Shown here: positions 8,743 through 51,604 of the stretch, piece by piece
How the letters are laid out: each line of letters starts with the position of its first letter
Numbering within the stretch: position 1 is the first letter of the stretch
Virus record (IMG/VR): IMGVR_UViG_3300037963_001723
Location: 1-57,719 of that record
Origin: a virus
Taxonomy: Duplodnaviria > Caudoviricetes
Direction: 5' to 3' (one strand)
DNA: 57,719 bases
Notes under the pieces: generated by a model
Told to the model about the DNA's origin: nothing
Seen by the model: the letters and a program-made list of their open reading frames with translations, nothing else
Database searches by the model: none
Translations under genes and position numbers: made by a program

Positions 8743-8744
8743 CT

Positions 8745-28232: not shown

Positions 28233-28529
28233 ATGAACAACATTAACATAAAAATTGAAAGGAATCAAAAACCCACATCCCCTTTAGGAAAGGGGGGTAA
28301 AACCAGATGGAATTTACCTTTAGGTGAGCTTGAGCCACCTAGAAAAGACGAATCAGGAGAGTGGGTTTATGACAAGCTAAGAATAAGCATGACATATAAC
28401 GAAGCAGAAAAAAATATGTTTGCTGTCAGAAGCCATGTTTGGAGATGGAGAAAGAAAAATGATGAAAAAGCAAAATTTTCTGTAAACCACGGAGAAACAT
28501 CGGACATACTTATATGGAGGACAGAATAG
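28233..28529 (+). CDS. Small putative DNA-binding protein
   Basis: 97-98 aa (IKIE...P...W.LP..EL...IWRTE), GAGGAG RBS. Confidence 0.5.
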   Translation: MNNINIKIERNQKPTSPLGKGGKTRWNLPLGELEPPRKDESGEWVYDKLRISMTYNEAEKNMFAVRSHVWRWRKKNDEKAKFSVNHGETSDILIWRTE

Positions 28530-29287
28530 CACATCGTACAAACAATAAAATGATACCTCTTGATATATTAAGAGGGATTCAATCTACATGGACACATAGT
28601 AAAGGTGACGCAGATTATTCTGTTACTGAACTATTAAGTCCACCAAAAGTTAGGGCTTTAAAGATAATTAATAAAGAAGATATAACAGAAGATTACTCTG
28701 ATTCTATTGCTACATTTATAGGAACATCTATTCATAAAACAATAGAAGATGCTAACAAAGATAAAGATGATTGTTTAACAGAAGAAAGAATGGAAGTTTC
28801 TATAAAAGCTGGAGACAAAACTATAACCATTTCTGGAACTGTAGACCATTATCATACAAGTAATCATCTATTAACTGATTATAAGACAACAGGCGCTTAT
28901 GGTATTAATTATGAAAAACCAGAATGGACACAACAATTAAATATATATAGATGGATGTTCAGTAAGGTTAAAGAAAAAGAAATGCCTGACGCTCAGATAA
29001 TTGCTATTTTGAAAGACTGGAGTAAACCAAGGTCAATAAATAGTAATACCTACCCACCTTCACCAGTTATGGTTAAACCAATCGCAAATTGGTCTGAGGA
29101 AGAAATAATAAAATTTATAATGGAAAGAATAGCCCTGCATGAAAAAGCTATAGAAAATCCACAGCAAATTTTATGTTCTGATGAAGAAAGGTGGCTTTCA
29201 CCAAAGGGTGTTTACAACAGATGTGAACACTATTGTAATGTTAATAAATTCTGTGACCAATATATAGGAGAGAAAAATGGCGAATGA
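28514..29287 (+). CDS. PD-(D/E)XK exonuclease (Cas4/RecB-like)
   Basis: GTSIH, E, SGTVD, DYKTT, QLNIY and a C-terminal Cys cluster. Confidence 0.85.
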   Translation: MEDRIAHRTNNKMIPLDILRGIQSTWTHSKGDADYSVTELLSPPKVRALKIINKEDITEDYSDSIATFIGTSIHKTIEDANKDKDDCLTEERMEVSIKAGDKTITISGTVDHYHTSNHLLTDYKTTGAYGINYEKPEWTQQLNIYRWMFSKVKEKEMPDAQIIAILKDWSKPRSINSNTYPPSPVMVKPIANWSEEEIIKFIMERIALHEKAIENPQQILCSDEERWLSPKGVYNRCEHYCNVNKFCDQYIGEKNGE

Positions 29288-30194
29288 ATTAAGTAAGATG
29301 TCTGGAATGACACCAAGCACATTTAATGAAGCAAAAGAATATGCACAATTAATATCTAAATCTGATTTTGTTCCAAGAGAATATAAGAACAAACCAGCTG
29401 AAATATTAATTTGTATACAAATGGGCGCTGAATTAGGATTAAAACCTATCCAGGCGCTTCAAAATATTGCTGTAATAAATGGTAAACCATCAATTTATGG
29501 AGATAGTGCTATTGCATTATGTAGAACTAATCCAGATTTTGCTGGTATAGAAGAAAAAGTTGAAGGAACTGGAGATAATAGAAAAGCTACTTGTACTGTT
29601 AAAAGAAAATTAAAAGCTACTGGAGAGATAGAAGTAACTATAAGGACATTTAGTATGCAAGAAGCTAAACAAGCTAACCTTTCATCAAGAGGCCCTTGGA
29701 AAAGCTATCCAGATAGAATGTTACAAATGAGGGCAAGAGGTTTTGCATTAAGAGACTCTTTCCCTGATTCTTTAAAAGCATTAATAACAACAGAAGAAGC
29801 AGCAGATTACCCATCAGAAGAAAATAAAACTACAGTTGAAGTAGAAATACCCAAACAGAATGGTTTTGATACAGAATCTTTAATGGAAGAAGCTGAAGAA
29901 CTGACTCCTGTTCAACCAACAGACGAACAAGTTGAAGCTGAAGAAGTTGAGCCAGAAAGTGACTTTGATCCAAACAGTGGGGTAGTTACCTCTTATAGAG
30001 AAGCTGTAATGTTTCACGATATGATTAAAGCATTAGTTCCAGAAATTGATAATTTAGAAGAATTAACTGATTTATGGAAAAACAATAAAGATCAGTTTGA
30101 AAGAGTTAATGCTTTAGCAGAACCTAACTACAAAGAAATATTAGAATTATTTAAACAACAAAAAGCTAAGATAAAAGGAGAAAACAATGGCTAA
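29277..30194 (+). CDS. RecT-like single-strand annealing protein
   Basis: G.ELGL.P.QAL.NI.VINGKP, W..YP.RML..RA...ALRD.FPD. Confidence 0.85.
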   Translation: MANELSKMSGMTPSTFNEAKEYAQLISKSDFVPREYKNKPAEILICIQMGAELGLKPIQALQNIAVINGKPSIYGDSAIALCRTNPDFAGIEEKVEGTGDNRKATCTVKRKLKATGEIEVTIRTFSMQEAKQANLSSRGPWKSYPDRMLQMRARGFALRDSFPDSLKALITTEEAADYPSEENKTTVEVEIPKQNGFDTESLMEEAEELTPVQPTDEQVEAEEVEPESDFDPNSGVVTSYREAVMFHDMIKALVPEIDNLEELTDLWKNNKDQFERVNALAEPNYKEILELFKQQKAKIKGENNG

Positions 30195-30504
30195 ATATGA
30201 CACAACACTACAAACGGAAGGCGCTATCTTTTTAAATGGTTATAAAGATAACGCAAAAAAACCTGACTATTTAGGTAGTATTAAAATAAATAGACAGCAA
30301 ATTAAGGCGATGGCCGAAATCGCTAAAGGCAATAACCTTGAAGAAGTAGAATGTAAAATTGCTTTATGGAACAGAGAAGCTAGAGAATCTGGCAAGAAAT
30401 ATAAATATTGTAAGTTTGAAGTTCCACAGGATGCTGTTAAAGAAGAATCACCTGCACAGGAAATTTCTACACCTGCTCCAGATGATGATATTCCTTGGGA
30501 GTAA
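30187..30504 (+). CDS. Putative ssDNA-binding protein
   Basis: KPDYLG motif, acidic DDDIPW tail, follows RecT. Confidence 0.65.
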   Translation: MAKYDTTLQTEGAIFLNGYKDNAKKPDYLGSIKINRQQIKAMAEIAKGNNLEEVECKIALWNREARESGKKYKYCKFEVPQDAVKEESPAQEISTPAPDDDIPWE

Positions 30505-30613: not shown

Positions 30614-30823
30614 ATAAATAGTGTCTATGTTAATAATTCGTTTGAAAAATATTTTATCAGGTATATATACATTTTTATCTAACTACTTATTGGAGAGAAA
30701 AAATGGAAAAACTATTGGACATAATGTCATTATATACAATACTAATTTGCCTGCTAAAAATTATATAATAGTCAAAGAGTTTAGAACATCACACAAATGA
30801 ACGCTAATAAAGGGAGAGAAAAA

Positions 30824-31654
30824 ATGCGTGCGCAAACCACATTAACGCCAGTTAAAAAAATGGAAAAAGACATCTTAAACACTGCTAAGGCTTTTAATGA
30901 AACAGAAATAAGAGTTTTAGTAGATAGATATTATCAAACACAAGAAAACAGAAAGAGAAGTGCGAATCAGTTAAGAGCTGCAATAGAAGATGGAGAGGAG
31001 TGTACTGCTCTTACATATCTTCTTGAGCAAGATAAACTTATTGAAAATCAAATTAAAAAGTTTCTTACTGAATTTTCTAATTCTCATAAAGTAGGTAGAT
31101 GGTGTATGGCTAATTACGGTATAGGTGGTGTAATAACTGCTGGGTTATTAGCTCATATAGATATAAAAAAAGCTCCTACAGCTGGTCATATTTGGAATTA
31201 CGCTGGATTAAATCCTGATCAAGTATGGAAAAAGGGAAGTAAAAGACCTTGGAATGCTCAGTTAAAAACGCTTTGTTGGAAGATAGGGGAAAGTTTTGTT
31301 AAAGTTTCCAATCAAGATGAGGCATTTTATGGTCAATTATATTCTCAAAGAAAAGAATTAGAAGTTAATAAAAACGCTTCTGGTCAATATAAAGACCATG
31401 CAGAAAAACAATTAAAAGAAAAAAATTATAATAAATCTACTGTAGCTTATAAACATTACATAAAAGGGGAACTACCTCCAGGTCATGTTCATGCAATAGC
31501 TAAGAGATGGACTGTTAAATTGTTTTTAAGTCACTTACATTATATTTGGTATCAACATGAGCACAGCGACACCCCTCCCCAACCTTATGCGCTGGCCCAA
31601 CTAGGGCATGCTCATTTGATAGAACCCCCTATTAGTCTTGAGGACATTGATTGA
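30824..31654 (+). CDS. tasA: TIGR-associated TasA-like protein (Nop / IS110 C-terminal RNA-binding domain, no nuclease domain)
   Basis: Coiled-coil, then GIG.V.TAGLLAHID, IWNYAGL, WN..LK...W, FYGQLY...K and GH.HA.AKR..VKLFL. No DEDD RuvC and no HNH. A dual-repeat array lies about 600 bp downstream. GGGAG RBS favours the ATG at 30824 over 30797. Confidence 0.85.
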   Translation: MRAQTTLTPVKKMEKDILNTAKAFNETEIRVLVDRYYQTQENRKRSANQLRAAIEDGEECTALTYLLEQDKLIENQIKKFLTEFSNSHKVGRWCMANYGIGGVITAGLLAHIDIKKAPTAGHIWNYAGLNPDQVWKKGSKRPWNAQLKTLCWKIGESFVKVSNQDEAFYGQLYSQRKELEVNKNASGQYKDHAEKQLKEKNYNKSTVAYKHYIKGELPPGHVHAIAKRWTVKLFLSHLHYIWYQHEHSDTPPQPYALAQLGHAHLIEPPISLEDID

Positions 31655-31720: not shown

Positions 31721-32107
31721 ATGAGTAAAAATAAAAAAGTTGAAGCATTTATATATAATGCTGAATTAGAAAGAGTTGTTGATGGCGATACTATAGATAT
31801 TACTATTGACCTTGGCTTTAATGTTAAACTACATAAACAAAGATGTCGTTTAGCTGGTATAGACACACCAGAATCCAGAACTAAAGATTTAGCTGAGAAA
31901 GCATTAGGTAAGAAAGCATCCGCAAGATTAAAAGAGTTATGTGGAAAAAAATTAAAGATTAAATCATTAGGTAAAGGAAAGTATGGAAGAATATTAGCAA
32001 TACCATACACAGAAGATGGCCAAGATATTTGTAAAATACTAATTGAAGAAGGTCATGCTGTTGAGTATCACGGTGGAACTAAAGTAAAAGTATGGGGGGA
32101 TTACTAA
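31721..32107 (+). CDS. Thermonuclease (staphylococcal nuclease-like)
   Basis: VVDGDT, RLAGIDTPE, KYGRILA, LIEEGHA. Confidence 0.9.
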   Translation: MSKNKKVEAFIYNAELERVVDGDTIDITIDLGFNVKLHKQRCRLAGIDTPESRTKDLAEKALGKKASARLKELCGKKLKIKSLGKGKYGRILAIPYTEDGQDICKILIEEGHAVEYHGGTKVKVWGDY

Positions 32108-32274
32108 TGAAAAAAGAACCAATATTTAAATGGCATGAAAAACTATTAATGTATTTTGTAGCTCTTGTTGTCATAGCATTTATAATTATAATGCAAGATG
32201 TTAAGGCAGAACGAGAAAAGAGCGAAAAGATAAAAGAGTGTGTTCAGTTTTTAGAAGATAATCAAATAGAATAA
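32107..32274 (+). CDS. Small membrane protein
   Basis: TAATG coupling to the nuclease gene, one TM segment; its stop codon overlaps the first array repeat. Confidence 0.6.
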   Translation: MKKEPIFKWHEKLLMYFVALVVIAFIIIMQDVKAEREKSEKIKECVQFLEDNQIE

Positions 32275-32640
32275 ACATCAACATCCAAGAATGAGCCAAT
32301 GCCGATGAACATCATTTCGATCGAACGAATCATGGACTGCGAACATCACAACATATAAATGAACCAGAGGAGTTAAACATCAAATTTTGCGAATGAATCA
32401 TAATTAATAAACATCAAATGAATAGAATGAATCACTAGTCATGAACATCAAGTGATAAGAATGAATCAGGACAAATGAACATCAATAAAAATAAATGAAT
32501 CAATATCAACGAACATCATGGCTAATAAATGAACCAACATACCTGAACTTTATTATATCATAGTGAACCAATGTGGATAAACATCATATCGCTCGAGTGA
32601 ACCACGGACTTTGAACTTCATTAGAGGCAAGTGCCTTTTT
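32256..32640 (+). ncRNA. TIGR-like dual-repeat guide RNA array (11 units, 34-nt period)
   Basis: AACATCA (or AACTTTA/AACTTCA) at 32274, 32308, 32342, 32376, 32410, 32444, 32478, 32512, 32546, 32580 and 32614. It alternates with AATGAATCA-like repeats at 32290 + 34n, separated by unique 9-nt segments. Confidence 0.9.
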
Positions 32641-32642: not shown

Positions 32643-33029
32643 AGCCATAATTAGCTTAGATTCCTATGCTGAAAAAAAATGTAAAGTCAATCTTCTAATT
32701 ATAGATTAGACCCCCTACTTATTTACTGGGTGGTTTTCTTTTTTTTAAGGAGAAAACCATGGGAGTAGAAATTCTTCATAATTAATAAAGAAAGAAAACA
32801 CTTACTAGTGAACATTATAAGTTTATTAGTGGTGTGTGCTTACGAGTTAACGCTCGACTACGATATTCGTAATTTCATGGATATTGATTGCGCTATAACT
32901 TGTGGCACAAGAAGAAAACTAAATAACGAATTAGAAGGAGAAACATATGACTTTTACTAAATTCTTATCAATGATAATGGTTATCCAACTTCTTGGTGTG
33001 ACTTTGTTTACTATAATTGTTGGCTAATC

Positions 33030-35862: not shown

Positions 35863-36797
35863 ATCTTGTGCTTAGGATATTTTTTACAGAAGTCACCTTT
35901 TTTGTATGCTTTTATTTCATAACCAGTAAGTTCTTTTTTTACCTCATCCCAGTCTGGTCTATCTTGTGGGTTTTCTTCCCATGCAATTTTTGCTTCAGCA
36001 CCTATCTTACCTTTATACGGACAGGGACTGCCAGCTTGCATCATCGAACGCCACACGCGAGCATCCTCACAAAGTAAGGCAACAGCTGCTACCTTCATCC
36101 CCATGTCATAGAGACCTTTGGAAAGTTTCAGTCTTTCGCAGTTTTCGTCTCGTACACTTCTACCAGTAGATATACCAAAGAATTGTGTCTGAACGGCTGA
36201 TGAAGCGCCTGAAGTGCAAAGGTCTTGAGAATAAGACATTATAGATGGAGCCACCGCTGAAGGTGGAGGGCTCTTAACTCTTTGCGTTACCTTTTGTGAA
36301 CTTTGGCTTGTGGAATTATTCGTGTTCACATTTTGTGAAGTGTTGTTGTTAGTGTTAAAATTTTGGTTATTTGTTGTAACATCGGAACTTGATGTTGAAA
36401 CATTGTTGTTATTGTTTGTCGAAACACTTGTTGAATTGTTGGTGTTTAAGTTGGTATTTTCTGATGTAGAGTTGTTAGTTATCAGTGAGGTGTTGTTAAC
36501 ATTTTGTGTCTGATTAATTGTGCTCGTCACCGTTGATGTGTTTACATTTGTATTGTTCGATGTGGAATTGTTTGTCTGAGAAATTGTCGTGTTGTTGGTG
36601 TTAAAATTGGTATTTGTGCTTGTGCTGGTGCTTTGATTCACATTGGTATTATTGTTGGTATTGGTATTGTTCGAGGTCACTGTGGAGGTCGTAGTGGTCG
36701 TGTTTGTAATATTAGAATCCTCAGCAAAAGCAATTATGCTGACTAAACTAACTGCCGAAATTAATATCGTTATATCTCTTAAATAAGTTCTTATCAT
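35850..36797 (-). CDS. Secreted-type Asn/Thr-rich protein with Cys-rich C-terminal domain
   Basis: Signal-like N-terminus, low-complexity N/T tract, PPPSA.AP...DLC...NCERLKL...MKVAAV...PCP. Confidence 0.7.
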   Translation of the reverse strand: MIRTYLRDITILISAVSLVSIIAFAEDSNITNTTTTTSTVTSNNTNTNNNTNVNQSTSTSTNTNFNTNNTTISQTNNSTSNNTNVNTSTVTSTINQTQNVNNTSLITNNSTSENTNLNTNNSTSVSTNNNNNVSTSSSDVTTNNQNFNTNNNTSQNVNTNNSTSQSSQKVTQRVKSPPPSAVAPSIMSYSQDLCTSGASSAVQTQFFGISTGRSVRDENCERLKLSKGLYDMGMKVAAVALLCEDARVWRSMMQAGSPCPYKGKIGAEAKIAWEENPQDRPDWDEVKKELTGYEIKAYKKGDFCKKYPKHKICSG

Positions 36798-39700
36798 ATT
36801 CCCCAGAGAGGCGAGCCTACCATCTTCTTAATTTTTGGTACTTCCATTAACACTCTATCTCTCTCAAGGTTCATCTGTTCTATTAAAGCTTTTCTGGTAT
36901 CAGAGTCAATAGTTTTATCCCTCATCACAAGATTTCTTCTTTGTCTCCATTTAGAAAGGTATCTTTCTATCCACCTTAATCTGCCTTTTTGTTTATAAAG
37001 GTCTCCATGACTTTGCATTAAAGCTTCTACATCCTCTAATCTTCCTTGCTTTCTAAGCTCATTCATTGTTCCTACTAATCTATCAAGCTCTCCTCTCATT
37101 TGATAAAAATCTTGAACAAGACCACCGCCATATGCTCTATCTCCAATAAATCTTTTTACTACATAAGCATTATGGAAACCCATAGGAATTTGAGGAGTTC
37201 CTGTAGCCATTCTTGAAGCTCTGTCAGTTAAATCTAAAGCATACCCACCAAGAGTTCCGAAATAACCTTTACCAACATGTTCTATTTTCATTGGGGATAT
37301 ATTAAGAGCTGCTCCAAGAGTTCTTGCCCATAGCTGTGTATTATCTGTATATCTTTCTTCAGGAATTCTACTTGATAACATCCAGTAAGGAACAATCTCT
37401 CTACCAGTGTAATCACTTCTATTATTAAAAGCTTCTTGTAATGGAGCCCAAATTTGCCAGTTAAATGGATTAACTTTAAATGTTGTTTCAGCTTGTCTCC
37501 ATGTAGCTTGAGCAAAATCATTAATATTATCGTCACCTAAAAATAGATTAAAGAATCTTTCTGGTAATACTTTTGTTAATACCCCTACTTCAAAAGGTAT
37601 TGGTATTTTAAAGCTGTATCTATCCCCTAAAGGTATAATGTAATTATCATCTCTTATTTCTTTTTTAGAATTTAACTCTTTATATTCTTCACTGTCACTT
37701 ACAAATAACCAATACAATGCTGTGACACCAATAAGAAGAGCTATTCTGTTAAGAAATCTTCTAGCTGCTGCACTGCTAATTTGTTTTTTACCTTCTTCTG
37801 TTAATGTGTCCATAACATTAGCAGAGTACCTACCAGCTCCAGCTCTATAAAGAACATCAAGACCTTGTATTCTGGCATTTAAAAATGGAATAGCTGTAGT
37901 TAATACTTTAAATAATGGGTCTCCACCTCTTCTGTTAAAGTTAATTATCTCTAACGCTTGAAAAGCAGCTTCTATTTGATTGCCTGTTTTTTTCAATACA
38001 TCTTGATAAACTGCTTGTCTAGTTGCAGCATCAGATTTTGTTGTAACTCTACCTAAAGCATCCCATATTCTTACTACTGCATTTTCAGTATCAAGACCTC
38101 CGTTTTTATCTCTACCCATTCTCCTCATTTCTTTATTAATAAACTTCATAAAGTCTTTTGGATCACCAGCTAAATCGTAACCACCAACAACTCCAAGCGC
38201 CTCAAGCTCAGATATTTCAGAAAAGAATCCATTAATAGTACTTATAAATGGTTTTATATCAGCACCAGATGTAGTGTATGCTGATAAAGTATCTCTCATC
38301 ATATTCACCATAATAAACCCAGGGTCTCTTGTTACCATTTCTCTTAATACAGAAGAAGGAGCTCCAACAAATCTTAAAAATCCTTTTAATATTGGTTCTC
38401 CCATAGTTTCTAAAGAATAAAGAATAGCTGGGTCATCTATGTAGTATATATGTTCCTCGCCATTTCTTTTAACTGATATAAGTTGACTTGAATCTATAGG
38501 GATATTTGTTCCATCTACATCAATGCCTTGTTCTAATTTTCTCTTTAAAGATGTTGAGTCTTTTTTAGGGCCTAAATCTATAACTAAATTTTCTATATTA
38601 TTAGGTGAAGTTACACCTTCTGGTTTTAATTCTTTAGTAAATTCTAAATCATCAACTATTCTTTGCCTTGCAACATTTTTAGCAGCAGCTGTAGCTAAAG
38701 ATAAATGATTTAATACCATTGCTTCTAAAGGATTTTGAAAATCACCGCCTATATTTTCTGGGTCAACCTTTTGATCAAACACACTAAACTGTCTGTTCAT
38801 TTCATCAGTATTAAATATTCCGTAACCAGGGGTATCTATATTTTCATGCTCTCTGTAGAAAGGATAGAAAGAAGAAAGCTCAGTAAATATAGCTGCTTTT
38901 TCATCTGTTATTAAACCAGTCTTTCTTGCAAGTTCAATCATTGAGTCATTAATAGCATCATATATTTCAGCAGCTCTTATTAGTTGAGGATATTTATTAG
39001 TAAGTTGACTAAAATAATCATCATTTAAAAAATCTTTTAATTTACCAGTTGCTTCTAGTTGTTTAAATAACTCTGATCCTTCAAACATTTCATTAGCTTG
39101 TAATGACCTTATTCTTCTCCATATCATGTAGTTACCAAAATGTTCATCAAGAAGTATTTCTTTTCCTTCTGCATTTTTTGTATGAAGTAAAGCCATAAGC
39201 TCTTTCATATCTACTAAACTGCCGTCTTCTAAATATTTTGGAACTCTTTTTATTGTTCCTGATGTGTAATCATTAGCAGGTAATACTCCACCTTTTCCAT
39301 CTGATTTAACAAACTCTAAAACCCCACCTTGTTTAATATATGCTGAAACATGACCTCTTGCTCTGTCTGCAAATGTTAAAGCTCCTATAGCGTTAGCATC
39401 GTGCATTATTCTTCTATCAGCTTCATCCATATTTATTTGCTTGGCTTTACCTATTGTTTTTGCCCAAACTTTTCTAAAAGCATCATGTCTATCAACTATT
39501 TTTTGTCTTAATGTTGTAAAAGTTTTTTCATTAAAGAAATTTTCTCCTGGGTCTGCATTTTTACCTCTCATAAACTGGAAAGGTAAGGTAAGAGTATTTA
39601 ATAGTTTTCTTGCAAAAGGTACTGTTTGATCTTCAGCAAATTTTATTGGTTTAAAACCAGTGCCAAAGTCATCAAACTCATCTCTAGTTCTTTGTCTACT

Positions 39701-42700
39701 AGCTTTATAATCATCATCTATAATTTCATCATATTTAAAACTAAAATCATTATCTGAATTTAATTGTTTACCAGCAGAATCTATAGAAGTAGGTAGTGCG
39801 TTTCTTAAATTATACGGAGGTATACCGCCTGGCCATTGAATTTCATTAGATTCTTCTAAATCTATTTTATATTGTTCAGTACTTTCTGTTGATTTTTCTG
39901 TGTATAAAGCAGAATTAGGTTTGTCTACTTGTGAAAATCCTTGAGGAGGTGGTACTAATCCTTCTTCTTCGTAGAATTGGTTAAGGACTCTGGAGATCGG
40001 TTCAAAAAGCGTATTGTTGGCTGCTGTTTGTATATTGGGTGATTTGGAGACACTACTGAAGCGTTGGATTCCTTCAAAGCCATCTCTATAATCTCCCTCT
40101 TCGTAAGCATAATAATCTCCATCTGTAAAAAAGTTGTCTAATATTACAGGAGTTTGCAGTATTCTTGCAAGTTCTTTTTCTATATGGTCTTTAAATGTAT
40201 TTACTCTGTTGTATATTACCTCCTGTGGAACATCTTCAACTTTGTAAGACAATAATGTATCATCTATAAAGTAAACACTGTTATCCTCTGGTATTACATT
40301 AAAAGTAAATCCTAATGCTTGACCGTCAAGATCGTTCATTCCTTTAGTTATTGCTTCTGCGTCTTGTCTAGTAAATGGTTCATTATTTTCTTTTCTAACT
40401 ATTACACCAGTATTATCTCCACCATAATCTGGTTGTATTGTAACAACCGCATCTTGATGTAATGCAGAGGCAAGAATTTTAGCTATTGATTCAACCTCTC
40501 CTTCTGATCCTTTTTTACCAACTTTCATTCCTGGTAAAGTTACAAGATATGTTGGTTCTGCTACAGCTCCCCACCCACCATATGTTTTTTGTATTTCGTG
40601 AGGTATGCCTAAATCTTTTAAGAATTTTATTTGCGGTCTTCCGTTGCTTTCAATTGTTATAGCATTAAATATTTCATCAGATAATTTTTCCCACTGAGAT
40701 AACTCTAAGTCACCTTCGTATATATTAGAACCTAATTTAGGAGATACAGCTATTTGTGGAGCAACTGCTCTTTGTAAATAATAAAGAGGGTCTGCTCCTG
40801 CATCCCAACTTAAAAAATCTTGCCTGCCTTTATATAAAATATCTGATATATCTTGTAGACCTATATCTAATGATTGATCTGTATTAAACAATCCTTTTTC
40901 CATTAATTCTTTTGATTTTTTAACAGCAGGAGCAACTAAAGAATCTTGTAATAAAGATTCTATATCTGCCTCACCATATTGATCTTCATTACTTCTTTGG
41001 TCAAACCATATTAATGCTTGTATTTCATCTGGAGCAAATGTCTGAAACTTTTTACCTCCTCTCGTATCATTAACTTCATATCTTTTTGTTGATAAAACTG
41101 TATTAATAAATTGAAGAACACCTTGTTCATTAGTGTTAAACATTGGTTGTCTTCTTTTGCCTTCTTTATCAAGAGGAGTAACACCATACGCATTACCCAT
41201 ATGAGTGTCCATTACTCCAAACGGAAAATATTCTCCTTGAGATGTTAAAAATAAACTTCTTACATATGTAGGTGTTTTAGCTGATGTAAGAGCTTTAACA
41301 TCCCACTCACCATTAACATATGTTCTTGCAATAGACCTCGCTTCTTTTTCAGATATATTATATTTCCTAATTAATTCATGTAAATTAGTTGTTAAGCTTT
41401 CTACAGAATAGGTTTGACCACTTGCTAAAATTTGCCTAACTCTATTCATAACTTCTAAAGTAGCTCTTAAATTTTTGTTTGGTGGATTTTGAGCTGATGT
41501 AATACCAAACACTACAGAAAACTCAACCATGTTTGGTCTTCCTACTAATGCTTCTATTGATCTTCCTAATTTTCTATACCAGTCGTAATCATTACCTTCA
41601 TTAAAGCTTCTTGTAACTCTTTCCATTAAACTTCCAACAGATGGAACATTAATTCCTTCTGGCATAGTTAATCCAAGTGCTTCATAAGCTTGTTCTACTT
41701 GCGCTTGTCCAAAACTATTCTCATTGCCATTAGCTCTCATTTCTTCGTATATTTTAATAAGTTCTTGAGCAACCTTATCTTCTGACATTAAAGGATATCC
41801 TTGCCCTGTATTGTTTAAATACTCATAAGCAGCTCCTTGCGGACCTGGAACTTTAGGCATAGTTATTCTGCTAAAGAAAAGACCTTGTGGTAATTCTGTT
41901 TGTAATTCTGTATCAATTAAACTTCTTGTAGCTAACTCAAAACCTCTACCAGCTTCAAATGGTCTATCTTCTTCTTCAGAATCATCAAGTGCTCCTACCG
42001 CTTCTTCTCCTGTTTCAACAGCTATATCTCTACCGCCTATTTCACCAGCTTGTAATCTTGTTGCTATAGTTGCAAAAACCTCTACAGAAGGTAAGTCAGA
42101 TTGTTTTAAACCTTTAATTAAATTTTGGAAGAAGTCTAATATTCTTTGCATTACACTTCTTGGTTGACCTGATAAAAGTTTAGCGTCTTTAGACCAAGCC
42201 CTATACAGTTCTGCTACAGCTTCTTCTTCTTGAACTGGTATAGACCTATCTCCATACATTTTTCTAGCTCTGTCATAAAATGTTTCGTTGTTTTGAAAAG
42301 CTACTGAATCCGTTGCCTCTGGAACTAATATTCTTTTTGACGAATTAACAAGATTTTCCCATTCTTTGTTTGTAAATAAATCTAAATTTTTTAAAGCATG
42401 AACAACTTCGTGATTTAAAACTTGTTCTAATCTTGCTTTTATCTCTCCCTCACTTAAATTTAAATCAGGATCAACTGCTTCAATATTTAAAAATATAGTA
42501 TTTAACGGAGCATAATAAGCTCCTTCATCTTTTCCTAATTCTCCAACTTTCTTTTGTTTGCTTTTACTTCTTATTATTGGGGAAAGGGCAACTCTTACAT
42601 CATGTTTTTTATCAATTAATTTACTTAGGCTTTTTTCAATATCTTTTCCTATTTTATCAGCCATTCTTTCTCTATTAAAAATTTCATCTGTAGAACGATT

Positions 42701-45103
42701 AATACTAGTTAAAGGTACCTCACCTCTCATATTTCCAGCTACAAGTCTTTCTTTTAAATTAGCTTCTTGAACATCAGACAATCCTCTTTTATTTACAGTT
42801 CCTTTTCTTTTGCCTTCAGAGTTAACTAAATTGTTTACCTCTTCACGAGTAAACATATTTTGATTACCTATCTTGTAATTAGAAAGTCTTTGAGCGTATT
42901 CTTGTGGGGTTTCCATAAAGGAAGTTCCGTTTTCATAAGAATATTTTTTAAACCAATCTTCATTTATAACTGGTTGATTATTTTTTGTTTTTAAACTTCC
43001 ATCAAAGAAAATATATTTATTACCTTTTTTAGTTAATCTTTTACTAGACAATAACCTGTTTATTAATTGAGTTGCTTCTGCTCCTTTTAAACCAGAGTAT
43101 TCTGATATTTGTTTTCTTGTATATTCTATTGGATTATTAGGATCAGTTTGTTCTTCTCTTACTTTGTTTAATAAATTATCTAATGGCCTTCTATCAAATC
43201 TTTGAGATTGTTCTTGAGATTTTTCTAAAACATTAGAAACATCAATCATAGGACTTGGCGTTCTTTGTTTTGGAATGTCAGCTAATCTTACAACTAATAG
43301 TTCTTTTTGACCTTTAGTCATTTCAGTTAATTTTTTAGCGCCAGTAACTTTTAATGCATATGCTTGAAATTCTTTAGAATTTACTTTTGATGTTATATTT
43401 TTTGAGTTAAGAATTTTTTGAACATTGTTTACAGTTATGTTACCACTTTTAGTTCTTGCTCTTTTTAAAGCTCCCTTACCTTGCTTTTTATTAGAAAACT
43501 CAGCTCTTCTAGCAAAAAAATCACTTATAGATTGTTTATTTGGTAACAATCTATATTTAATAGCTTCTTCAAAAGTAAATGGAATATTTCGTTCTAATTT
43601 ATTTTTTACTTCTTTATTTTTAATTTTAGAAATTCTTGATCTTAATTTATTGTTTAAAGCTAATCTGTATTCTTTATTAGGAACTTCATCTTTTCCTAAT
43701 CCATATAAATCTTGAGCTAATTCTGTTTTGCTTATTGAAGAATATTCTGGAGCAGATGTTTGTATTAATATTGTTTGCGCTGATGAATTACCTTCCACTC
43801 CTAATTCATAAGCATCTTTACTTGTTTGAGCCATTTTTTTAGCATCACTAACAGCTCTTATTAATTTATTAGCATTTATATTTGCTTGTTCTTCTGTGTT
43901 ATAAGTTCCTAATATTCTGCTGTTATCATTTAAATCTACAATATCAAAAAGACCAGAACTTTTATCTTCTACTACTGATGGTTGAAAGTTAACAATGTTT
44001 TGATCGTAAACCTTATGTTGATTTTTTAATTTTTTTACACCAATTCTTTCTTGTTCTTCAGCTAAAATATTTTGTTCTTCTGTGGAATTTATTTCTACTT
44101 CTGATAATGGTATAGCTTTACCTTCATCATCAAATCCCATTCTATATCTACTTCTTGGTAACATAGTTTCAGAAAGTAAATCTACAGTAGCACCCACAGC
44201 ACCACCAACAGTAAACTCATCAAATATACTTTCTCCAATATCTAATGTAGGATCATACAATCCTTTTGCTACTGCTCTTTGTAATAAACCAGCACCAGCT
44301 TCTTGAATACCTTCTGCTAAAGCCTGAGCCCCAACAGAACCAGCTAAGTAAGCTCTTCTTTGTGAACCTAATAATTGACTTAAAGCATCATCAACTAAAA
44401 CTTTACCTTCAGCTGTTTTAGGTATCTTTCTAAATAATCTCCAAAGAGGAGCTAATTCTGTTAAACCTATTGCTCCGCCAGATAACTTAGAAAGAAACTG
44501 TTCCCCACCACTTATTTCAATACCTTTTTCTCTAGCTCTTTCTCTATAATCTAATTGTTCAGAAGCTCCCATACCTACTGCTAAAGGAACTGTTGATATA
44601 GGTATGCCATATTTACTGTATTTTAATGCGTTAGAAGCGATATTTGCTGTCTGACCAACCCTACTAGCAGCTCCTAAACCTGATCCTATGGCGCTTAAAC
44701 CGCCTGATAAGACCATTGGAGCAAAGAAAGAGCCAACATTACCTATACCAGTACCAAATTTAACCGCCCAAGAATCTTCATATCCTTCTCCTATAGAATC
44801 ATTCCAACTATCTGTCCAATCTTGTACAGCATCAAGCATAGGATTATCGTCATCCATACCTCCTAAACTTAAAAGGCCTTCTGCGGTCATTCCTAAACCT
44901 TGCATAAAACCTCTAGGAACAGCTTTTATTGTTTCTTTTACAGTTCCAAATACTGTTGTATTTTCTTGAGAGTCAAAACCTTCTCCAAACTCTTCTGGAA
45001 AATCTTCAGCTAACATTGTATCTAATTGAGATTGTTGTTCCTGACTCATATTGTCAGGTAACTCTAATGTTCTACCGTCTGGAAGTCTTACATACTCAGG
45101 CAT
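36794..45103 (-). CDS. Giant ejection / large polyvalent protein (2769 aa) with LPD38-like C-terminus
   Basis: HEVVH zincin-like motif; C-terminal PFLNARIQG and KIPIPFEVG; last of the ejection-type genes. Confidence 0.75.
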   Translation of the reverse strand: MPEYVRLPDGRTLELPDNMSQEQQSQLDTMLAEDFPEEFGEGFDSQENTTVFGTVKETIKAVPRGFMQGLGMTAEGLLSLGGMDDDNPMLDAVQDWTDSWNDSIGEGYEDSWAVKFGTGIGNVGSFFAPMVLSGGLSAIGSGLGAASRVGQTANIASNALKYSKYGIPISTVPLAVGMGASEQLDYRERAREKGIEISGGEQFLSKLSGGAIGLTELAPLWRLFRKIPKTAEGKVLVDDALSQLLGSQRRAYLAGSVGAQALAEGIQEAGAGLLQRAVAKGLYDPTLDIGESIFDEFTVGGAVGATVDLLSETMLPRSRYRMGFDDEGKAIPLSEVEINSTEEQNILAEEQERIGVKKLKNQHKVYDQNIVNFQPSVVEDKSSGLFDIVDLNDNSRILGTYNTEEQANINANKLIRAVSDAKKMAQTSKDAYELGVEGNSSAQTILIQTSAPEYSSISKTELAQDLYGLGKDEVPNKEYRLALNNKLRSRISKIKNKEVKNKLERNIPFTFEEAIKYRLLPNKQSISDFFARRAEFSNKKQGKGALKRARTKSGNITVNNVQKILNSKNITSKVNSKEFQAYALKVTGAKKLTEMTKGQKELLVVRLADIPKQRTPSPMIDVSNVLEKSQEQSQRFDRRPLDNLLNKVREEQTDPNNPIEYTRKQISEYSGLKGAEATQLINRLLSSKRLTKKGNKYIFFDGSLKTKNNQPVINEDWFKKYSYENGTSFMETPQEYAQRLSNYKIGNQNMFTREEVNNLVNSEGKRKGTVNKRGLSDVQEANLKERLVAGNMRGEVPLTSINRSTDEIFNRERMADKIGKDIEKSLSKLIDKKHDVRVALSPIIRSKSKQKKVGELGKDEGAYYAPLNTIFLNIEAVDPDLNLSEGEIKARLEQVLNHEVVHALKNLDLFTNKEWENLVNSSKRILVPEATDSVAFQNNETFYDRARKMYGDRSIPVQEEEAVAELYRAWSKDAKLLSGQPRSVMQRILDFFQNLIKGLKQSDLPSVEVFATIATRLQAGEIGGRDIAVETGEEAVGALDDSEEEDRPFEAGRGFELATRSLIDTELQTELPQGLFFSRITMPKVPGPQGAAYEYLNNTGQGYPLMSEDKVAQELIKIYEEMRANGNENSFGQAQVEQAYEALGLTMPEGINVPSVGSLMERVTRSFNEGNDYDWYRKLGRSIEALVGRPNMVEFSVVFGITSAQNPPNKNLRATLEVMNRVRQILASGQTYSVESLTTNLHELIRKYNISEKEARSIARTYVNGEWDVKALTSAKTPTYVRSLFLTSQGEYFPFGVMDTHMGNAYGVTPLDKEGKRRQPMFNTNEQGVLQFINTVLSTKRYEVNDTRGGKKFQTFAPDEIQALIWFDQRSNEDQYGEADIESLLQDSLVAPAVKKSKELMEKGLFNTDQSLDIGLQDISDILYKGRQDFLSWDAGADPLYYLQRAVAPQIAVSPKLGSNIYEGDLELSQWEKLSDEIFNAITIESNGRPQIKFLKDLGIPHEIQKTYGGWGAVAEPTYLVTLPGMKVGKKGSEGEVESIAKILASALHQDAVVTIQPDYGGDNTGVIVRKENNEPFTRQDAEAITKGMNDLDGQALGFTFNVIPEDNSVYFIDDTLLSYKVEDVPQEVIYNRVNTFKDHIEKELARILQTPVILDNFFTDGDYYAYEEGDYRDGFEGIQRFSSVSKSPNIQTAANNTLFEPISRVLNQFYEEEGLVPPPQGFSQVDKPNSALYTEKSTESTEQYKIDLEESNEIQWPGGIPPYNLRNALPTSIDSAGKQLNSDNDFSFKYDEIIDDDYKASRQRTRDEFDDFGTGFKPIKFAEDQTVPFARKLLNTLTLPFQFMRGKNADPGENFFNEKTFTTLRQKIVDRHDAFRKVWAKTIGKAKQINMDEADRRIMHDANAIGALTFADRARGHVSAYIKQGGVLEFVKSDGKGGVLPANDYTSGTIKRVPKYLEDGSLVDMKELMALLHTKNAEGKEILLDEHFGNYMIWRRIRSLQANEMFEGSELFKQLEATGKLKDFLNDDYFSQLTNKYPQLIRAAEIYDAINDSMIELARKTGLITDEKAAIFTELSSFYPFYREHENIDTPGYGIFNTDEMNRQFSVFDQKVDPENIGGDFQNPLEAMVLNHLSLATAAAKNVARQRIVDDLEFTKELKPEGVTSPNNIENLVIDLGPKKDSTSLKRKLEQGIDVDGTNIPIDSSQLISVKRNGEEHIYYIDDPAILYSLETMGEPILKGFLRFVGAPSSVLREMVTRDPGFIMVNMMRDTLSAYTTSGADIKPFISTINGFFSEISELEALGVVGGYDLAGDPKDFMKFINKEMRRMGRDKNGGLDTENAVVRIWDALGRVTTKSDAATRQAVYQDVLKKTGNQIEAAFQALEIINFNRRGGDPLFKVLTTAIPFLNARIQGLDVLYRAGAGRYSANVMDTLTEEGKKQISSAAARRFLNRIALLIGVTALYWLFVSDSEEYKELNSKKEIRDDNYIIPLGDRYSFKIPIPFEVGVLTKVLPERFFNLFLGDDNINDFAQATWRQAETTFKVNPFNWQIWAPLQEAFNNRSDYTGREIVPYWMLSSRIPEERYTDNTQLWARTLGAALNISPMKIEHVGKGYFGTLGGYALDLTDRASRMATGTPQIPMGFHNAYVVKRFIGDRAYGGGLVQDFYQMRGELDRLVGTMNELRKQGRLEDVEALMQSHGDLYKQKGRLRWIERYLSKWRQRRNLVMRDKTIDSDTRKALIEQMNLERDRVLMEVPKIKKMVGSPLWGI

Positions 45104-47850: not shown

Positions 47851-48284
47851 TAATTTAAAAACCTTTTCTGATAAGCTACTGCTATTTTATCCCAAGAATC
47901 ATCTTTCAACCAGTTCCAAAAACCAGGTCTTCCTAAAGCTTCAATTCCATCACACTCAGAATCTTTAGCAAATTTTTCTACAACCTCTAATCCTTCTTTA
48001 GTCCATTTATCTTGATGTCTACCAGCTAAATGATCAATATTAAGCATTCTTAATCCTGACGGATAGTCGTTTATTTGAGTTATACCACATCCTAATATTT
48101 CAGGATATCTTTCTTCTTCATAAAAAATCCATAAATGACTTTCGCCATATAAACATTCTTGTAATAAATCTGATGTGCTTGTTCTTCCGTAACTTCTTTT
48201 AATACTTTTATTTAATAGTTTCTCTACGAAAGGCCACACATGACCTAAATCTTTTGGTTGTACTAATGTTTGTTTTACCTTCAT
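47850..48284 (-). CDS. GNAT-like internal virion protein
   Basis: 144 aa, C..IEA.GR.G.W motif, located among ejection genes. Confidence 0.55.
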   Translation of the reverse strand: MKVKQTLVQPKDLGHVWPFVEKLLNKSIKRSYGRTSTSDLLQECLYGESHLWIFYEEERYPEILGCGITQINDYPSGLRMLNIDHLAGRHQDKWTKEGLEVVEKFAKDSECDGIEALGRPGFWNWLKDDSWDKIAVAYQKRFLN

Positions 48285-51200: not shown

Positions 51201-51604
51201 AGGCCAAGTTTAGTTCCTTCTTTTGTTAAAGTTCCTGCTGTTTGCCCTGCTTGAGCTACTTGACCAATACCAAAGCCAGTAAGACCAGCTAAAAGACCTT
51301 CTTCAAGACTTCCTGTTACAGCTGTTGTTGCAAGTCCAGAACCTAGAGCAGCGATACCTGAAGTTGCTAAAGGAGATAAAGCCATACTACTTGCTAATGC
51401 TGTGCCACCTAAACTACCTAAAACAGGAGCTAAGAAAGGAAGAAAAGCTTCTGGATATCCTGTATCTGGATTTACAGTTAATGGTGTTAAACTTGCTAAT
51501 CCTTCTACTTCAGCTGGATTAACATGCATTAAGGTAGTATCTCCGTAACGACCTCTGCTCGCTACTTGGTCTGCCATACTCTTATAAGGTCTATTATAGT
51601 TCAT
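48281..51604 (-). CDS. Large putative internal virion protein (1107 aa)
   Basis: N-terminal GRYGDT.L.H.NP.E and NP.TG.PEAF; C-terminal G.GGGMDD...LSPGEY...ADVVS.LG.G; repeat-rich middle. Confidence 0.65.
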   Translation of the reverse strand: MNYNRPYKSMADQVASRGRYGDTTLMHVNPAEVEGLASLTPLTVNPDTGYPEAFLPFLAPVLGSLGGTALASSMALSPLATSGIAALGSGLATTAVTGSLEEGLLAGLTGFGIGQVAQAGQTAGTLTKEGTKLGLNPETISSIGTEWVPGVDGAKGALTLTGKDTLANLTSNQITDLTTAVNKPGMSNLFTEAGMKGAGSALMSPANLAPIGVGMGGIAVEEDYKNYVESMENAEQARKDKRAADKAAYVEQIPGRVALNPTGPTRTAGGSGPTGLGGPYANRYGNEGGAVRRFNIGGITPGHFGVGNNPYLVANGWSYDSSTGTWSGPNGATFQDPYWRKPGDGADAGGDGGDGGDGATEETGYQYEGEPGQFRPPTEVGATPPRGYNATPSNYMPGFMPEWQYLTNLSPSATDIRGNPALSGGVGGTYDTPMGRIEVPDNPGGIPEIDPTKRDLSVNPYAYGSDWNEFLMGNEEIGRSSYMDEYMANMPYYQYADQSFDEIFGGGGYGTPSFTGYPYPIMGGPAPVLPPADTQPQPNPYEEQIASLNARIDELLAQIEGKTTETETTEDENENKEDKEDKGDKEPKWVLTGSYTNDDGNLVKTFTDENPNSPTFGDTKTEQEVAESNKTPIWEVKTSVRVDNGQMLVTSIDTNPYSPSYNQEKQEYTGEITHEQDENGNWVPISSDDDEDKNTEPDWQQTGSVTLNDGRTEITKTDQNPDSPTFGETTKEIVGEATHELVDGKWVLIGSSSSSSDTSSSSDTSSSSDTSSSSETSSSSSETSSSSSDTSSSSTVDGSSGTDTVDGGAGVDGDTNGDGIVTVEDYLPAGTNIDLSSVGGGSFTIPDTSGLTGGNITTTLPGGAGTDTITNNTTANTTDNTTTNTTNNTVQPYNNPYGIDFNPYGAGFNFGNIGWAEGGTVNRYQEGGPSLATIEDYAQPLPQGRMQQPMSNPKVEQLVSSFEDVAEQKGQPLSEGDKDLLRKTSSVILGEIQDDGTIISQFVALFGSEQLDNLKAYLNPEAEQTKGMIEGEGGGMDDRVSGTLGEEQVALSPGEYIVTADVVSDLGDGNNEKGAEIMDDFMQRVRYAKHGTPKQPDPIDLDEVMPA
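49219..49352. repeat. Coding tandem repeat (18-21 bp units) encoding SS(S)DTSS
   Basis: TGATGAACTTGAAGTGTC-type units, about 7 copies. Confidence 0.85.

What the first reader, a model, noticed from the sequence alone, without database searches (positions are those of the whole stretch)
32256..32640. Atypical array geometry: 34-nt period with possibly only 7-nt variable spacers
Seen: the last two bases before AACATCA are pyrimidine-purine in all 11 units (tg x5, ta x4, cg x2). The base before the AATGAATCA-like repeat position is a purine in 10 of 11. The repeats may therefore be YRAACATCA and NRAATGAATCA, with spacers of 7-8 nt. The repeats end in TCA/CCA (one TTA variant) and contain or begin with TG-like dinucleotides, reminiscent of the box C/D-like motifs of tigRNAs. 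Established: the canonical described units are about 36 nt with 9-nt spacers. Inference: this is a shorter-guide subtype with ~14-16 bp targets, suited to binding or repression.
Basis: partly seen in the sequence, partly recalled or inferred. Interest (0 to 1): 0.7.

Follow-up and report, generated by a model that had tools for sequence, protein, structure and literature searches.

The report
TIGR guide array with short loop
This marine phage carries a TIGR guide-RNA array beside a nuclease-free Tas protein gene, and its odd 34-base unit comes from a two-base-shorter loop repeat, not from shorter guides.

Summary
An exact 34-nt periodic array lies at window 32255-32633 (+). YR precedes AACATCA in 11 of 11 units, and a purine precedes the other repeat in 10 of 11.

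This is a dual-repeat TIGR array of 11 units, 3' of a nuclease-less TasA gene (30797-31654) in a tailed marine phage.

Comparison with 320 non-identical units from other 34-nt arrays, and with 34 related 36-nt arrays, gives four results:
- The purines belong to the repeats.
- The pyrimidine does not: 19/32, 30/47 and 128/255 elsewhere.
- Both spacers have 8 variable bases, the same as in the family's 36-nt arrays.
- The missing 2 nt lie in the loop repeat, RAACAUCA (8 nt, against 10). It has lost the family's invariant central GA and its closing base pair.

RARUGAAYCA is the edge repeat. Array boundaries and covariation both show this.

I predict 34-nt tigRNAs, cut between edge positions 5 and 6 by TasA's conserved Tyr/His pair, that guide DNA binding without cleavage. 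No targets and no RNA data were found.

The 34-nt type is a minority but recurs: 9 stretches in IMG/VR, 61 in metagenomes, and one MAG. I found no mention of it in searchable papers.

Verdict: a new variant of a known kind, of modest interest.

The parts
30797..31654 (+). tasA: 285-aa Tas protein (P0001) with coiled coil and Nop domain and no nuclease domain. Tyr264 and His271 align with the pre-tigRNA processing residues Y289 and H296 of SpTasH.
   Evidence: phmmer against PDB: SpTasH 21kl E 1.6e-11 over residues 15-277, and 9mty E 1.8e-10. phrog_4285 E 7e-49. Pfam gives only a weak IS110-type hit and no HNH or RuvC. 3463 homologues. Y289/H296 are named in the NAR 2026 paper, section read.
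31721..32107 (+). Staphylococcal-nuclease-family gene between tasA and the array. It is a neighbour, not a conserved part of the system.
   Evidence: PF00565 E 1.8e-13; phrog_452. tblastn found it in 0 of 116 related loci.
32092..32274 (+). 60-aa ORF for a small hydrophobic protein. Its 3' end overlaps the first array unit. It is conserved upstream of the array in the close clade.
   Evidence: ORF list. tblastn hits in L082 (81% identity), L002/L003, L004/L084 and L083.
32255..32633 (+). TIGR dual-repeat array, period 34. It has 12 edge-repeat slots (10 nt, R-A-R-T-G-A-A-Y-C-A, at 32255+34i); the first is degenerate in its 5' half and the last is cut after position 5. It has 11 loop repeats (8 nt, R-A-A-C-A-T-C-A, at 32273+34i). 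Spacer A is 8 nt at 32265+34i and spacer B is 8 nt at 32281+34i.
   Evidence: Edge/loop assignment.
32260..32633 (+). Eleven predicted mature tigRNAs of 34 nt each (32260+34i to 32293+34i). Each reads 5' AAYCA, spacer A, RAACAUCA, spacer B, RARUG 3'. This is inferred, not observed.
   Evidence: The cut between edge positions 5 and 6 is inferred from what array ends retain. First slots keep the 3' half in 23/42 arrays (reverse pattern 0). Last slots keep the 5' half in 15/39 (reverse pattern 0). It agrees with 'middle of an edge repeat' in Faure 2025 (passage seen).
32624..32640 (+). Weak terminator-like hairpin (GAGGC-AAGU-GCCUU followed by U-run) that overlaps the last spacer B and the truncated last edge.
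   Evidence: Fold. It was not called by the consensus terminator scan (0 found). Relatives L004, L006, L083 and L085 have strong hairpin plus T-run terminators at the same place.

Best explanation
This is a dual-repeat TIGR array encoding 11 tandem guide RNAs for the adjacent nuclease-less TasA protein of a tailed marine phage. Each 34-nt unit is: a 10-nt edge repeat (RARUGAAYCA), 8 variable nt (spacer A), an 8-nt loop repeat (RAACAUCA), and 8 variable nt (spacer B). The family norm is 10+8+10+8 = 36. Here the loop repeat is 2 nt shorter: it has lost the family's invariant central GA and the base pair that normally closes the loop. Box C (NCA before each spacer), the G-A that follows each spacer, and the spacer length are unchanged. 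Inferred steps: the array is transcribed with tasA from the + strand. A TasA dimer binds the precursor and cuts each edge repeat between positions 5 and 6 with its Tyr264/His271 pair, giving 34-nt tigRNAs. Spacers A and B then pair with opposite strands of adjacent half-sites. Because TasA has no nuclease, the outcome is DNA binding, meaning repression or blocking, rather than cleavage.
For: Shown:
- Exact period 34.
- The Tas homologue lies 620 nt upstream on the same strand.
- Of the top 80 IMG/VR loci of this Tas family, 68 show a periodic array: 61 at period 36, 2 at 34 (L004 and L006, the window's closest array-bearing relatives), 1 at 35, 2 at 37, and 2 whose best period was another repeat. 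Of 25 genome loci, 12 show arrays: 10 at 36, 1 at 34 (L100) and 1 at 38.
- In 34 non-identical 36-nt arrays (68 half-units), offsets +1 to +8 after box C are variable, +9 is G (53/68), +10 is A (68/68) and +13 is G (68/68). So 8 variable nt is the family norm.
- In 34-nt arrays the box-C to box-C distances are 18 and 16. The short half-unit, measured from one box C to the next, ends at the AACATCA repeat.
- The purine before each repeat is conserved elsewhere: loop 30/32, 47/47 and 252/255; edge 32/32, 47/47 and 254/255. The preceding base is not.
- The 10-nt repeat is the edge. Arrays start with its 3' half and end with its 5' half plus a terminator. It also carries two covarying pairs: positions 4:7 are TA 177 and CG 114 of 320, and positions 3:8 are AT 131, GC 94 and GT 45. 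The extra pair is the criterion Faure 2025 gives for edge repeats (section 8, read).
- The 8-nt repeat shows no pairing: positions 3:6 are AT 159 and AG 140, and positions 1:6 are GG 131 and GT 124.
- One array (L115) mixes 8-nt and 9-nt loops, so loop length is tolerated.
- Natural variants of this phage in metagenome contigs differ by insertions of exactly 34 nt (25+9 and 23+11 letters, table 5c).
- Y264 and H271 align with SpTasH Y289 and H296.

From the literature: TasA binds tigRNAs (Faure 2025). A TasA acts as an RNA-guided repressor (Xu 2026 preprint, abstract and passages).
Against: - There is no RNA evidence, so tigRNA ends and length are inferred.
- No natural target was found, so the tandem pairing and the number of paired bases are untested here.
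- The repressor result in the literature is for a stem-loop-class TasA, not a dual-repeat one.
- The window's terminator is weak (one search found none).
- With only 2 nt between box D and box C in the loop, the canonical D2:C1 pair cannot form. The loop must therefore sit on the second Nop domain differently from the solved complexes, and a register shift is not excluded.
- In the window 3 of 10 edge copies have an A/C mismatch at positions 3:8.
- The tree of Tas proteins was FastTree only and leaves open whether the 34-nt type arose once or several times.
Confidence: 0.78

Rival explanations
1. Register-shift reading, close to the first reader's. The loop is bound as a canonical 9-nt repeat Y/N-R-AACA-UCA, with box D = NR, a tetraloop-like AACA and box C = UCA. 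Spacer A then offers only 7 pairing bases while spacer B offers 8-9, giving an asymmetric, shorter guide.
For: YR is 11/11 in the window. R(-1) could pair with U(+4) as G-U or A-U. AACA is A-rich, like the loop segment described for TaTasR (Faure 2025 section 8). A 2-nt gap cannot close a Watson-Crick pair, so some rearrangement is needed.
Against: The base at -2 is unbiased elsewhere (128/255 pyrimidine; 19/32 and 30/47). In 140 of 320 units the would-be partner is G, so G-G cannot pair, and there is no covariation. The invariant family A at box-D position 1 would be displaced into the loop. In 8 clusters of orthologous units the -2 base changed 0 times, like other spacer bases, whereas the purine at -1 changed 4 times (small sample).
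Confidence: 0.1
2. The roles are swapped. AACATCA is the edge repeat, cut during maturation, and ARTGAAYCA is the loop with a UGAA tetraloop. That would give 10 units from 32274 to 32620.
For: GAACATCA resembles the edge repeat GAACGAGTCA of many 36-nt relatives. In L012 (period 37) and L072 (period 35) the length change is in the edge repeat. TGAA occurs in the loop position in L077.
Against: Every 34-nt array whose ends I read starts with the 3' half and ends with the 5' half of the 10-nt repeat, next to a terminator or the tas start. The 10-nt repeat has the covarying extra pair that defines edges, and the 8-nt repeat has none. In L100, L114, L116 and L117 the partner of the 8-nt repeat is the CGAG-type GAGCGAGCCA repeat, which marks both array boundaries there.
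Confidence: 0.06
3. The array is a decaying or non-functional remnant, and its odd period is an accident of deletion.
For: The closest Tas relative (L002/L003, 72% identity) keeps only two isolated units. The window has variant loops in units 9 and 11 and relaxed G-to-R at the repeat starts.
Against: The same 34-nt geometry with intact repeats recurs in dozens of contigs, and 37 of 61 metagenome stretches have 5 or more parsable units. Spacer pairs are conserved between phages whose Tas proteins are only 56-58% identical. Tas keeps its catalytic dyad. Population variants gain whole units.
Confidence: 0.04

Closest known systems
SpTIGR-TasH of Salicola phage CGphi29 (dual-repeat TIGR; structures such as PDB 9W03/9W04, 21kl)
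   Same: The Tas proteins are homologous over nearly the full length, including the Y/H processing dyad. The array lies on the tas strand. Repeats have the form purine-A-N-NNNN-NCA, there are 8 variable nt per spacer, and the last edge overlaps the terminator.
   Different: SpTIGR has two 10-nt repeats and a 36-nt unit, with loop AAG-ACAA-CCA. Here the loop is 8 nt and unpaired, and the unit is 34 nt. SpTasH carries an HNH nuclease; this protein has none (28% identity in the local alignment: 26.8%).
36-nt dual-repeat TasA arrays of the same protein family (for example L055/L081 with GAATGAATCA + GAGAGAACCA; L051 with GAACGAGTCA + GAGAGAACCA)
   Same: The edge repeat family is the same (GAATGAATCA occurs in L055/L081). 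Spacers have the same 8 variable nt followed by G-A. Boundary rules are the same.
   Different: Their loop repeats are 10 nt, with an invariant G at position 5 and a 3:8 pair. The window's loop lacks both.
TaTIGR-TasR (Thermoproteota archaeon; Faure 2025 cryo-EM complex)
   Same: Tandem-spacer architecture, with box C before and box D after each spacer. The edge has an extra covarying pair (section 8).
   Different: TaTIGR has 9 variable nt per spacer, 9-nt repeats UG-NNNN-CCA, a RuvC nuclease and 36-nt tigRNAs.
Archaeal box C/D sRNAs with Nop5
   Same: A Nop-domain dimer binds a bipartite guide with two guide segments flanked by C-like and D-like boxes (Faure 2025 discussion).
   Different: There are no K-turn/L7Ae motifs, no fibrillarin, and the target is DNA rather than RNA. 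The units are arrayed and processed. These points are taken from the paper and were not tested here.

Membership tests
TIGR-Tas, dual-repeat class | An adjacent gene for a Tas protein (coiled coil plus Nop domain) | tested here: met
   P0001 matches solved TasH (E 1.6e-11, residues 15-277) and 9mty (E 1.8e-10). It lies on the same strand, 620 nt upstream of the array.
TIGR-Tas, dual-repeat class | Two distinct alternating short repeats separated by two short variable spacers | tested here: met
   10-nt and 8-nt repeats alternate with 8+8 variable nt.
TIGR-Tas, dual-repeat class | Box C (NCA) at the 3' end and box D at the 5' end of both repeats, with box D position 2 paired to box C position 1 | tested here: inconclusive
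   Both repeats start with R-A and end with C-A. The pair is supported in the edge: AT 131, GC 94 and GT 45 of 320. It is not supported in the 8-nt loop: AT 159 and AG 140, with only 2 nt between the positions.
TIGR-Tas, dual-repeat class | Edge repeat with an additional covarying base pair | tested here: met
   Positions 4:7 of the 10-nt repeat are TA 177 and CG 114 of 320. In the window they are TA in 7 of 10.
TIGR-Tas, dual-repeat class | The array begins with a 5'-truncated edge and ends with a 3'-truncated edge followed by a terminator | tested here: met
   In the window the first slot is AAGAT|AATCA and the last is AAGTG|CCTTT. The pattern is general. The window's terminator is only a weak hairpin.
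TIGR-Tas, dual-repeat class | A unit and mature tigRNA of 36 nt ('typically') | tested here: not met
   The unit is exactly 34 nt. The papers describe 36 as typical, not obligatory.
TIGR-Tas, dual-repeat class | The Y/H processing dyad at the C-terminal end of the Nop domain | tested here: met
   Y264 and H271 align with SpTasH Y289 and H296 (alignment; residues named; dyad stated to be specific to dual-repeat systems).
TIGR-Tas, dual-repeat class | The array is transcribed and processed into Tas-bound tigRNAs | not testable with these tools
   No RNA holder was listed for this stretch.
TIGR-Tas, dual-repeat class | Tandem-spacer pairing to opposite strands of a DNA target | not testable with these tools
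   There were no matches above chance in the phage itself or in IMG/VR for one conserved guide.
TasA subtype (Nop only) | No HNH or RuvC nuclease domain | tested here: met
   The protein is 285 aa. Pfam shows no nuclease domain. Only 14 residues precede the region that aligns with SpTasH residues 48-302.

The most novel reading that the evidence does not exclude
The 8-nt loop is a functional adaptation, not merely a tolerated deletion. By removing the G-A step that is the cleavage site in edge repeats, and by abolishing the closing pair, it would make the two halves of the tigRNA structurally unequal. That would protect the loop from mis-processing. It might also shift the register, so that the two spacers engage the target asymmetrically (7+9 or 8+9 paired bases). 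This would be a naturally minimised, asymmetric 34-nt guide class that arose in several Tas lineages and that motif-based array finders with a fixed 4-nt repeat gap overlook.
Probability: 0.12. Interest if true: 0.6.

Novelty: new variant of a known kind. Interest (0 to 1): 0.36.

Why it matters
TIGR-Tas systems are very recent and are being developed as compact, PAM-free DNA-targeting tools. All characterised dual-repeat guides are 36 nt.

A natural, recurrent 34-nt class has a loop cut down to 8 unpaired bases while the spacers and boxes are unchanged. This shows which part of the guide is dispensable, which is useful for minimising synthetic tigRNAs.

It also marks a blind spot for array annotation that assumes a 4-nt gap between box D and box C, as in the TIGRFinder methods text seen.

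Finally, it corrects a tempting misreading. A shorter period does not mean shorter guides, so target-length and specificity estimates for such arrays should stay at 8 variable nt plus 1 conserved nt per strand.

The biological role in the phage remains open, because no targets were found.

Tried and rejected
- **Close relatives by single protein.** The search for related loci with P0001 alone found none in IMG/VR. An alignment of homologues was needed.
- **Self-targeting.** I scanned the whole window outside the array with the 8+8 cores of all 11 guides, in both strand arrangements and with gaps of 0-6. Hits at up to 2 mismatches occurred at the same rate as for 100 mis-paired spacer combinations, about 0.1 per pair and geometry. 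The expected geometry (A + 2 nt + reverse complement of B) gave 3 hits against about 0.8 expected, which is not significant after 14 geometries.
- **Target search in IMG/VR for the most conserved guide.** There were 84 stretches and no enrichment of any gap length once identical contexts were collapsed: distinct contexts 6, 13, 8, 12 and 5 for gaps 0-4. One exact 18/18 match in the predicted 9+9 geometry (L178, between tail genes) is about what chance gives, roughly 0.5 expected. No other guide of 42 tested matched that contig better than chance.
- **RNA evidence.** No RNA holder was listed, so expression and RNA ends could not be examined.
- **Rfam.** Nothing relevant; one sub-threshold miRNA-model hit on the opposite strand.
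- **Terminator scan.** None by its criteria.
- **Second array.** I looked for one in the window, as the relative's contig has (L085). None was found.
- **SNase as a trans-acting nuclease partner of TasA.** Rejected as a conserved feature, since it is present in 0 of 116 related loci.
- **Structure prediction of TasA and complex prediction.** Not run. The available tools do not model RNA, so they could not settle the loop register.
- **Supplements.** They may already show 34-nt arrays.

Full report
**What is there**

Window 32255-32633 (+) holds a strictly 34-nt periodic array. Self-match at period 34 is 0.73 there and at most 0.46 anywhere else in the window. TRF detects only its centre.

- The two bases before AACATCA are TG x5, TA x4 and CG x2, so YR in 11/11.
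- The base before the ARTGAAYCA-type repeat is a purine in 10/11.

No ORF of 40 aa or more runs through the array. Only the 3' end of a 60-aa ORF (32092-32274) overlaps its first unit.

**Context**

The window is a whole virus record of 57,719 nt with an estimated completeness of 99%. It is a tailed phage, with terminase, portal and primase/helicase genes. Near-identical DNA is held by marine and seawater metagenome runs of 12 studies.

About 620 nt upstream of the array, on the same strand, lies a 285-aa protein, P0001 (30797-31654).
- It matches solved TasH of Salicola phage CGphi29 over residues 15-277 (E 1.6e-11) and a second solved relative, 9mty (E 1.8e-10).
- It matches phrog_4285 (E 7e-49).
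- It has 3463 homologues in the large protein collection.
- Pfam shows no HNH or RuvC domain, so it is a TasA-type protein.
- Its Y264 and H271 align with SpTasH Y289 and H296. The NAR 2026 paper names these as the residues that process pre-tigRNA (section read). [quoted passage not shown]

Two genes lie between tasA and the array:
- A staphylococcal-nuclease-family gene. It is absent from all 116 related loci I held, so it is not a conserved partner.
- The small ORF, which is conserved in the close clade.

**What the literature defines**

Faure et al. 2025 (PMC12045711; abstract, sections 4, 6, 8, 10, 25 and passages read) describe the system as follows:
- Two alternating repeats of 8-12 nt and spacers of 9 nt, exceptionally up to 12.
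- 36-nt tigRNAs cut in the middle of the edge repeat.
- 18 variable nt in two model arrays but 16 in SpTIGR.
- Box D at the start and box C at the end of both repeats, with one base of each paired.
- A tetraloop-like segment in the loop repeat, and an extra covarying pair in the edge repeat.

The Xu et al. 2026 preprint (abstract, sections 3, 5, 10, 21 and passages) calls the unit 'typically 36nt'. Its TIGRFinder links box C + spacer + box D intervals 'separated by exactly 4 bp' and allows spacers of 8-10 nt.

**Comparative survey**

I used an alignment of 30 homologues to fetch loci.
- **IMG/VR, top 80 of 510 confirmed loci.** My periodicity scan found an array in 68. Of these, 61 have period 36; 2 have period 34 (L004 and L006, whose Tas proteins are 56-58% identical to P0001 and are its nearest array-bearing relatives); 1 has period 35; 2 have period 37. 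In 2 more the best period was an unrelated repeat. Twelve loci showed no clear array.
- **Genome-collection loci, 25.** Twelve had arrays: 10 at period 36, 1 at 34 (L100, a MAG) and 1 at 38.

I then profiled 34 non-identical 36-nt arrays, giving 68 half-units:
- The eight positions after box C are variable, with mean top-base frequency 0.42-0.48.
- Position +9 is G in 53/68.
- Position +10 is A in 68/68.
- Position +13 is G in 68/68.
- Each half-unit ends in C-A.

The family's normal unit is therefore two 10-nt repeats of the form G-A-N-N-G-A-N-N-C-A plus two stretches of 8 variable nt. SpTIGR itself has the same layout. Eight variable bases per spacer is thus the norm for this family and is not a peculiarity of the 34-nt array.

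**Where the two bases are missing**

In the 34-nt arrays the distances between successive box-C ends are 18 and 16. The short half-unit, measured from one box C to the next, ends at the AACATCA repeat. The repeat RARTGAAYCA has the normal 10 nt, and RAACATCA has 8.

Pattern scans found more arrays with this geometry:
- 5 and 9 stretches in IMG/VR.
- 61 stretches in metagenome contigs. Of these, 47 have at least 2 parsable units and 37 have at least 5. Successive units are 34 nt apart in 183 cases, against 2 cases at 35.

These include GC-rich phages in which the same 8-nt GAACATCA alternates with the CGAG-type 10-nt repeat GAGCGAGCCA of the 36-nt arrays (L114, L116, L117). L100 has GAACAGCA.

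Counts in other 34-nt arrays:

| Position | AT-rich relatives | GC-rich/other | Metagenome units |
|---|---|---|---|
| Purine before the 8-nt repeat core | 30/32 | 47/47 | 252/255 |
| Purine before the 10-nt repeat core | 32/32 | 47/47 | 254/255 |
| Pyrimidine one base further upstream of AACATCA | 19/32 | 30/47 | 128/255 |

The Y is a spacer base. Both spacers have 8 variable nt.

**Which repeat is the edge**

Two independent criteria agree.

1. **Array boundaries.**
   - The window's array starts with AAGAT|AATCA, where only the 3' half matches the 10-nt repeat. It ends with AAGTG|CCTTT, where only the 5' half matches, inside a hairpin.
   - L004, L006, L083 and L085 end in the same way, directly before strong terminators.
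   - Over 42 arrays of this type, the first slot has a degenerate 5' half and an intact 3' half in 23, both halves intact in 17, both degenerate in 2, and the reverse pattern in 0.
   - Over the 39 last slots not cut by a contig end, 15 have an intact 5' half and a degenerate 3' half, and 0 show the reverse.
   - My chain detection sometimes stopped inside an array, which explains the 'both intact' cases.
2. **Covariation over 320 non-identical units.**
   - In the 10-nt repeat, positions 4:7 are TA 177 and CG 114, and positions 3:8 are AT 131, GC 94 and GT 45. That gives the box pair plus the extra pair that Faure 2025 uses to define edges.
   - In the 8-nt repeat no pairing is seen: positions 3:6 are AT 159 and AG 140, and positions 1:6 are GG 131 and GT 124.

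RARUGAAYCA is therefore the edge and RAACAUCA is the loop. What array ends retain (positions 6-10 at the start, positions 1-5 at the end) places the maturation cut between edge positions 5 and 6. This predicts eleven 34-nt tigRNAs from 32260 to 32633.

**What the short loop lacks**

Compared with the 10-nt loops of relatives, such as GAGAGAACCA, the 8-nt loop differs in two ways:
- It lacks the invariant central G-A.
- With only two bases between box D and box C, it cannot form the closing pair, and the data show none.

One array (L115) mixes 8-nt and 9-nt loops. Edges of 9 and 11 nt occur in L072 and L012. The segment between the boxes is therefore the length-variable part of the guide in this family.

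A FastTree tree of 91 Tas proteins puts the window in a well-supported clade: SH-like support 100, 6 rows, and all 4 with arrays have period 34. L114/L116/L117 and L100 fall elsewhere, among poorly resolved branches. Starred branches force at least 3 changes of the '34' label. Several origins are possible but not shown. Rows found by pattern search bias that sample towards period 34.

**Population evidence**

Metagenome contigs of four runs laid on the window show variants with insertions of exactly one unit. One is 25 new letters plus a 9-letter overlap, after about 32355. The other is 23 new letters plus an 11-letter overlap, after about 32564 (table 5c). The first inserted unit equals a unit of the relative's second array, L085. 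The array therefore evolves by whole 34-nt units.

Spacer pairs are shared between phages whose Tas proteins are only 56-58% identical, for example the TGGACTGC / CAACATAT pair. This argues for conserved targets.

**Function**

What is shown is the anatomy, the homology and the conservation. The rest is inferred:
- Co-transcription with tasA. The scan found no terminator between tasA and the array.
- Processing by the Y/H dyad.
- Tandem-spacer binding of DNA without cleavage, as reported for TasA proteins: binding in Faure 2025, and repression by a stem-loop-class TasA in the Xu 2026 preprint.

I could not find targets, either in the phage itself or in IMG/VR for the conserved guide. No RNA data exist for this stretch.

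**Novelty**

The system is known, and variable repeat and spacer sizes between loci are acknowledged in print. I found no paper in the searchable library that contains 'tigRNA' together with '34-nt' or '34 nt'. Neither term occurs in Faure 2025 or in the Xu preprint.

Read literally, TIGRFinder's fixed 4-nt gap (4-5 on extension) and its 8-10 nt spacers would not fit alternate gaps of a 34-nt array. The part of its Methods that lists dual-repeat motifs was not in the text I saw, so this is a caution and not a finding.

**Verdict**

This is a real, well-conserved TIGR array of a minority short-loop type.

Noticed in passing
L002 about 4540-4740 (and L003): The Tas relative closest to P0001 (72% identity) has no array. 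It has two isolated tigRNA-like units separated by unrelated sequence. One of them carries the same spacer B and a near-identical spacer A (ATGCCTAT vs ATGCCGAT) as the window's unit 2 (ATGCCGAT / TTTCGATC), and a terminator follows.
   Followed up: partly
L115 about 9800-10300 (- strand): One array mixes 9-nt loops (GAAYATGCA, period 35) with 8-nt loops (GAACAGCA, period 34) between identical GAGCGAGCCA edges. A single Tas protein apparently accepts both loop lengths.
   Followed up: partly
L085 about 8200-8750 (- strand), same contig as L005/L082: A relative's genome carries a second 34-nt array of 5 units, with its own terminator, about 7.5 kb from tas, in addition to the array downstream of tas. 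The window has only one array.
   Followed up: partly
L178, - strand position 3133 (+ strand about 8133-8150): An exact 18/18 match to the target predicted for the window's conserved guide (spacer A with its 9th base, then the reverse complement of spacer B with its 9th base). It lies in an AT-rich viral contig between a tape-measure-like ORF and the ORF before it. About 0.5 such hits are expected by chance, and no other guide matches that contig.
   Followed up: yes
window 32670-32702: A conserved intergenic element just after the array (A-run followed by TGTAAAGTCAATCTTCTAATTA). Near-identical copies lie at the same place in L002, L004, L006 and L083. It may be a promoter or regulatory site for the neighbouring genes.
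   Followed up: no
window 31721-32107: A staphylococcal-nuclease-family gene sits directly after the nuclease-less tasA. It is found in none of 116 related loci, so the pairing looks incidental, but a nuclease acting in trans was not excluded experimentally.
   Followed up: partly
window 32355-32363 and 32564-32574: Metagenome contigs of four runs hold variants of this phage with one extra 34-nt unit inserted at these places (table 5c).
   Followed up: partly
window 28514-30504: A recombination module lies upstream of tasA: a PD-(D/E)XK nuclease, a RecT-family protein, and a weak SSB-like hit.
   Followed up: no
window 36794-45103 (-) and 49226-49348: A 2769-aa ORF lies among the late genes. 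An 18-nt tandem repeat (6.5 copies) lies inside the 1107-aa ORF at 48281-51604.
   Followed up: no
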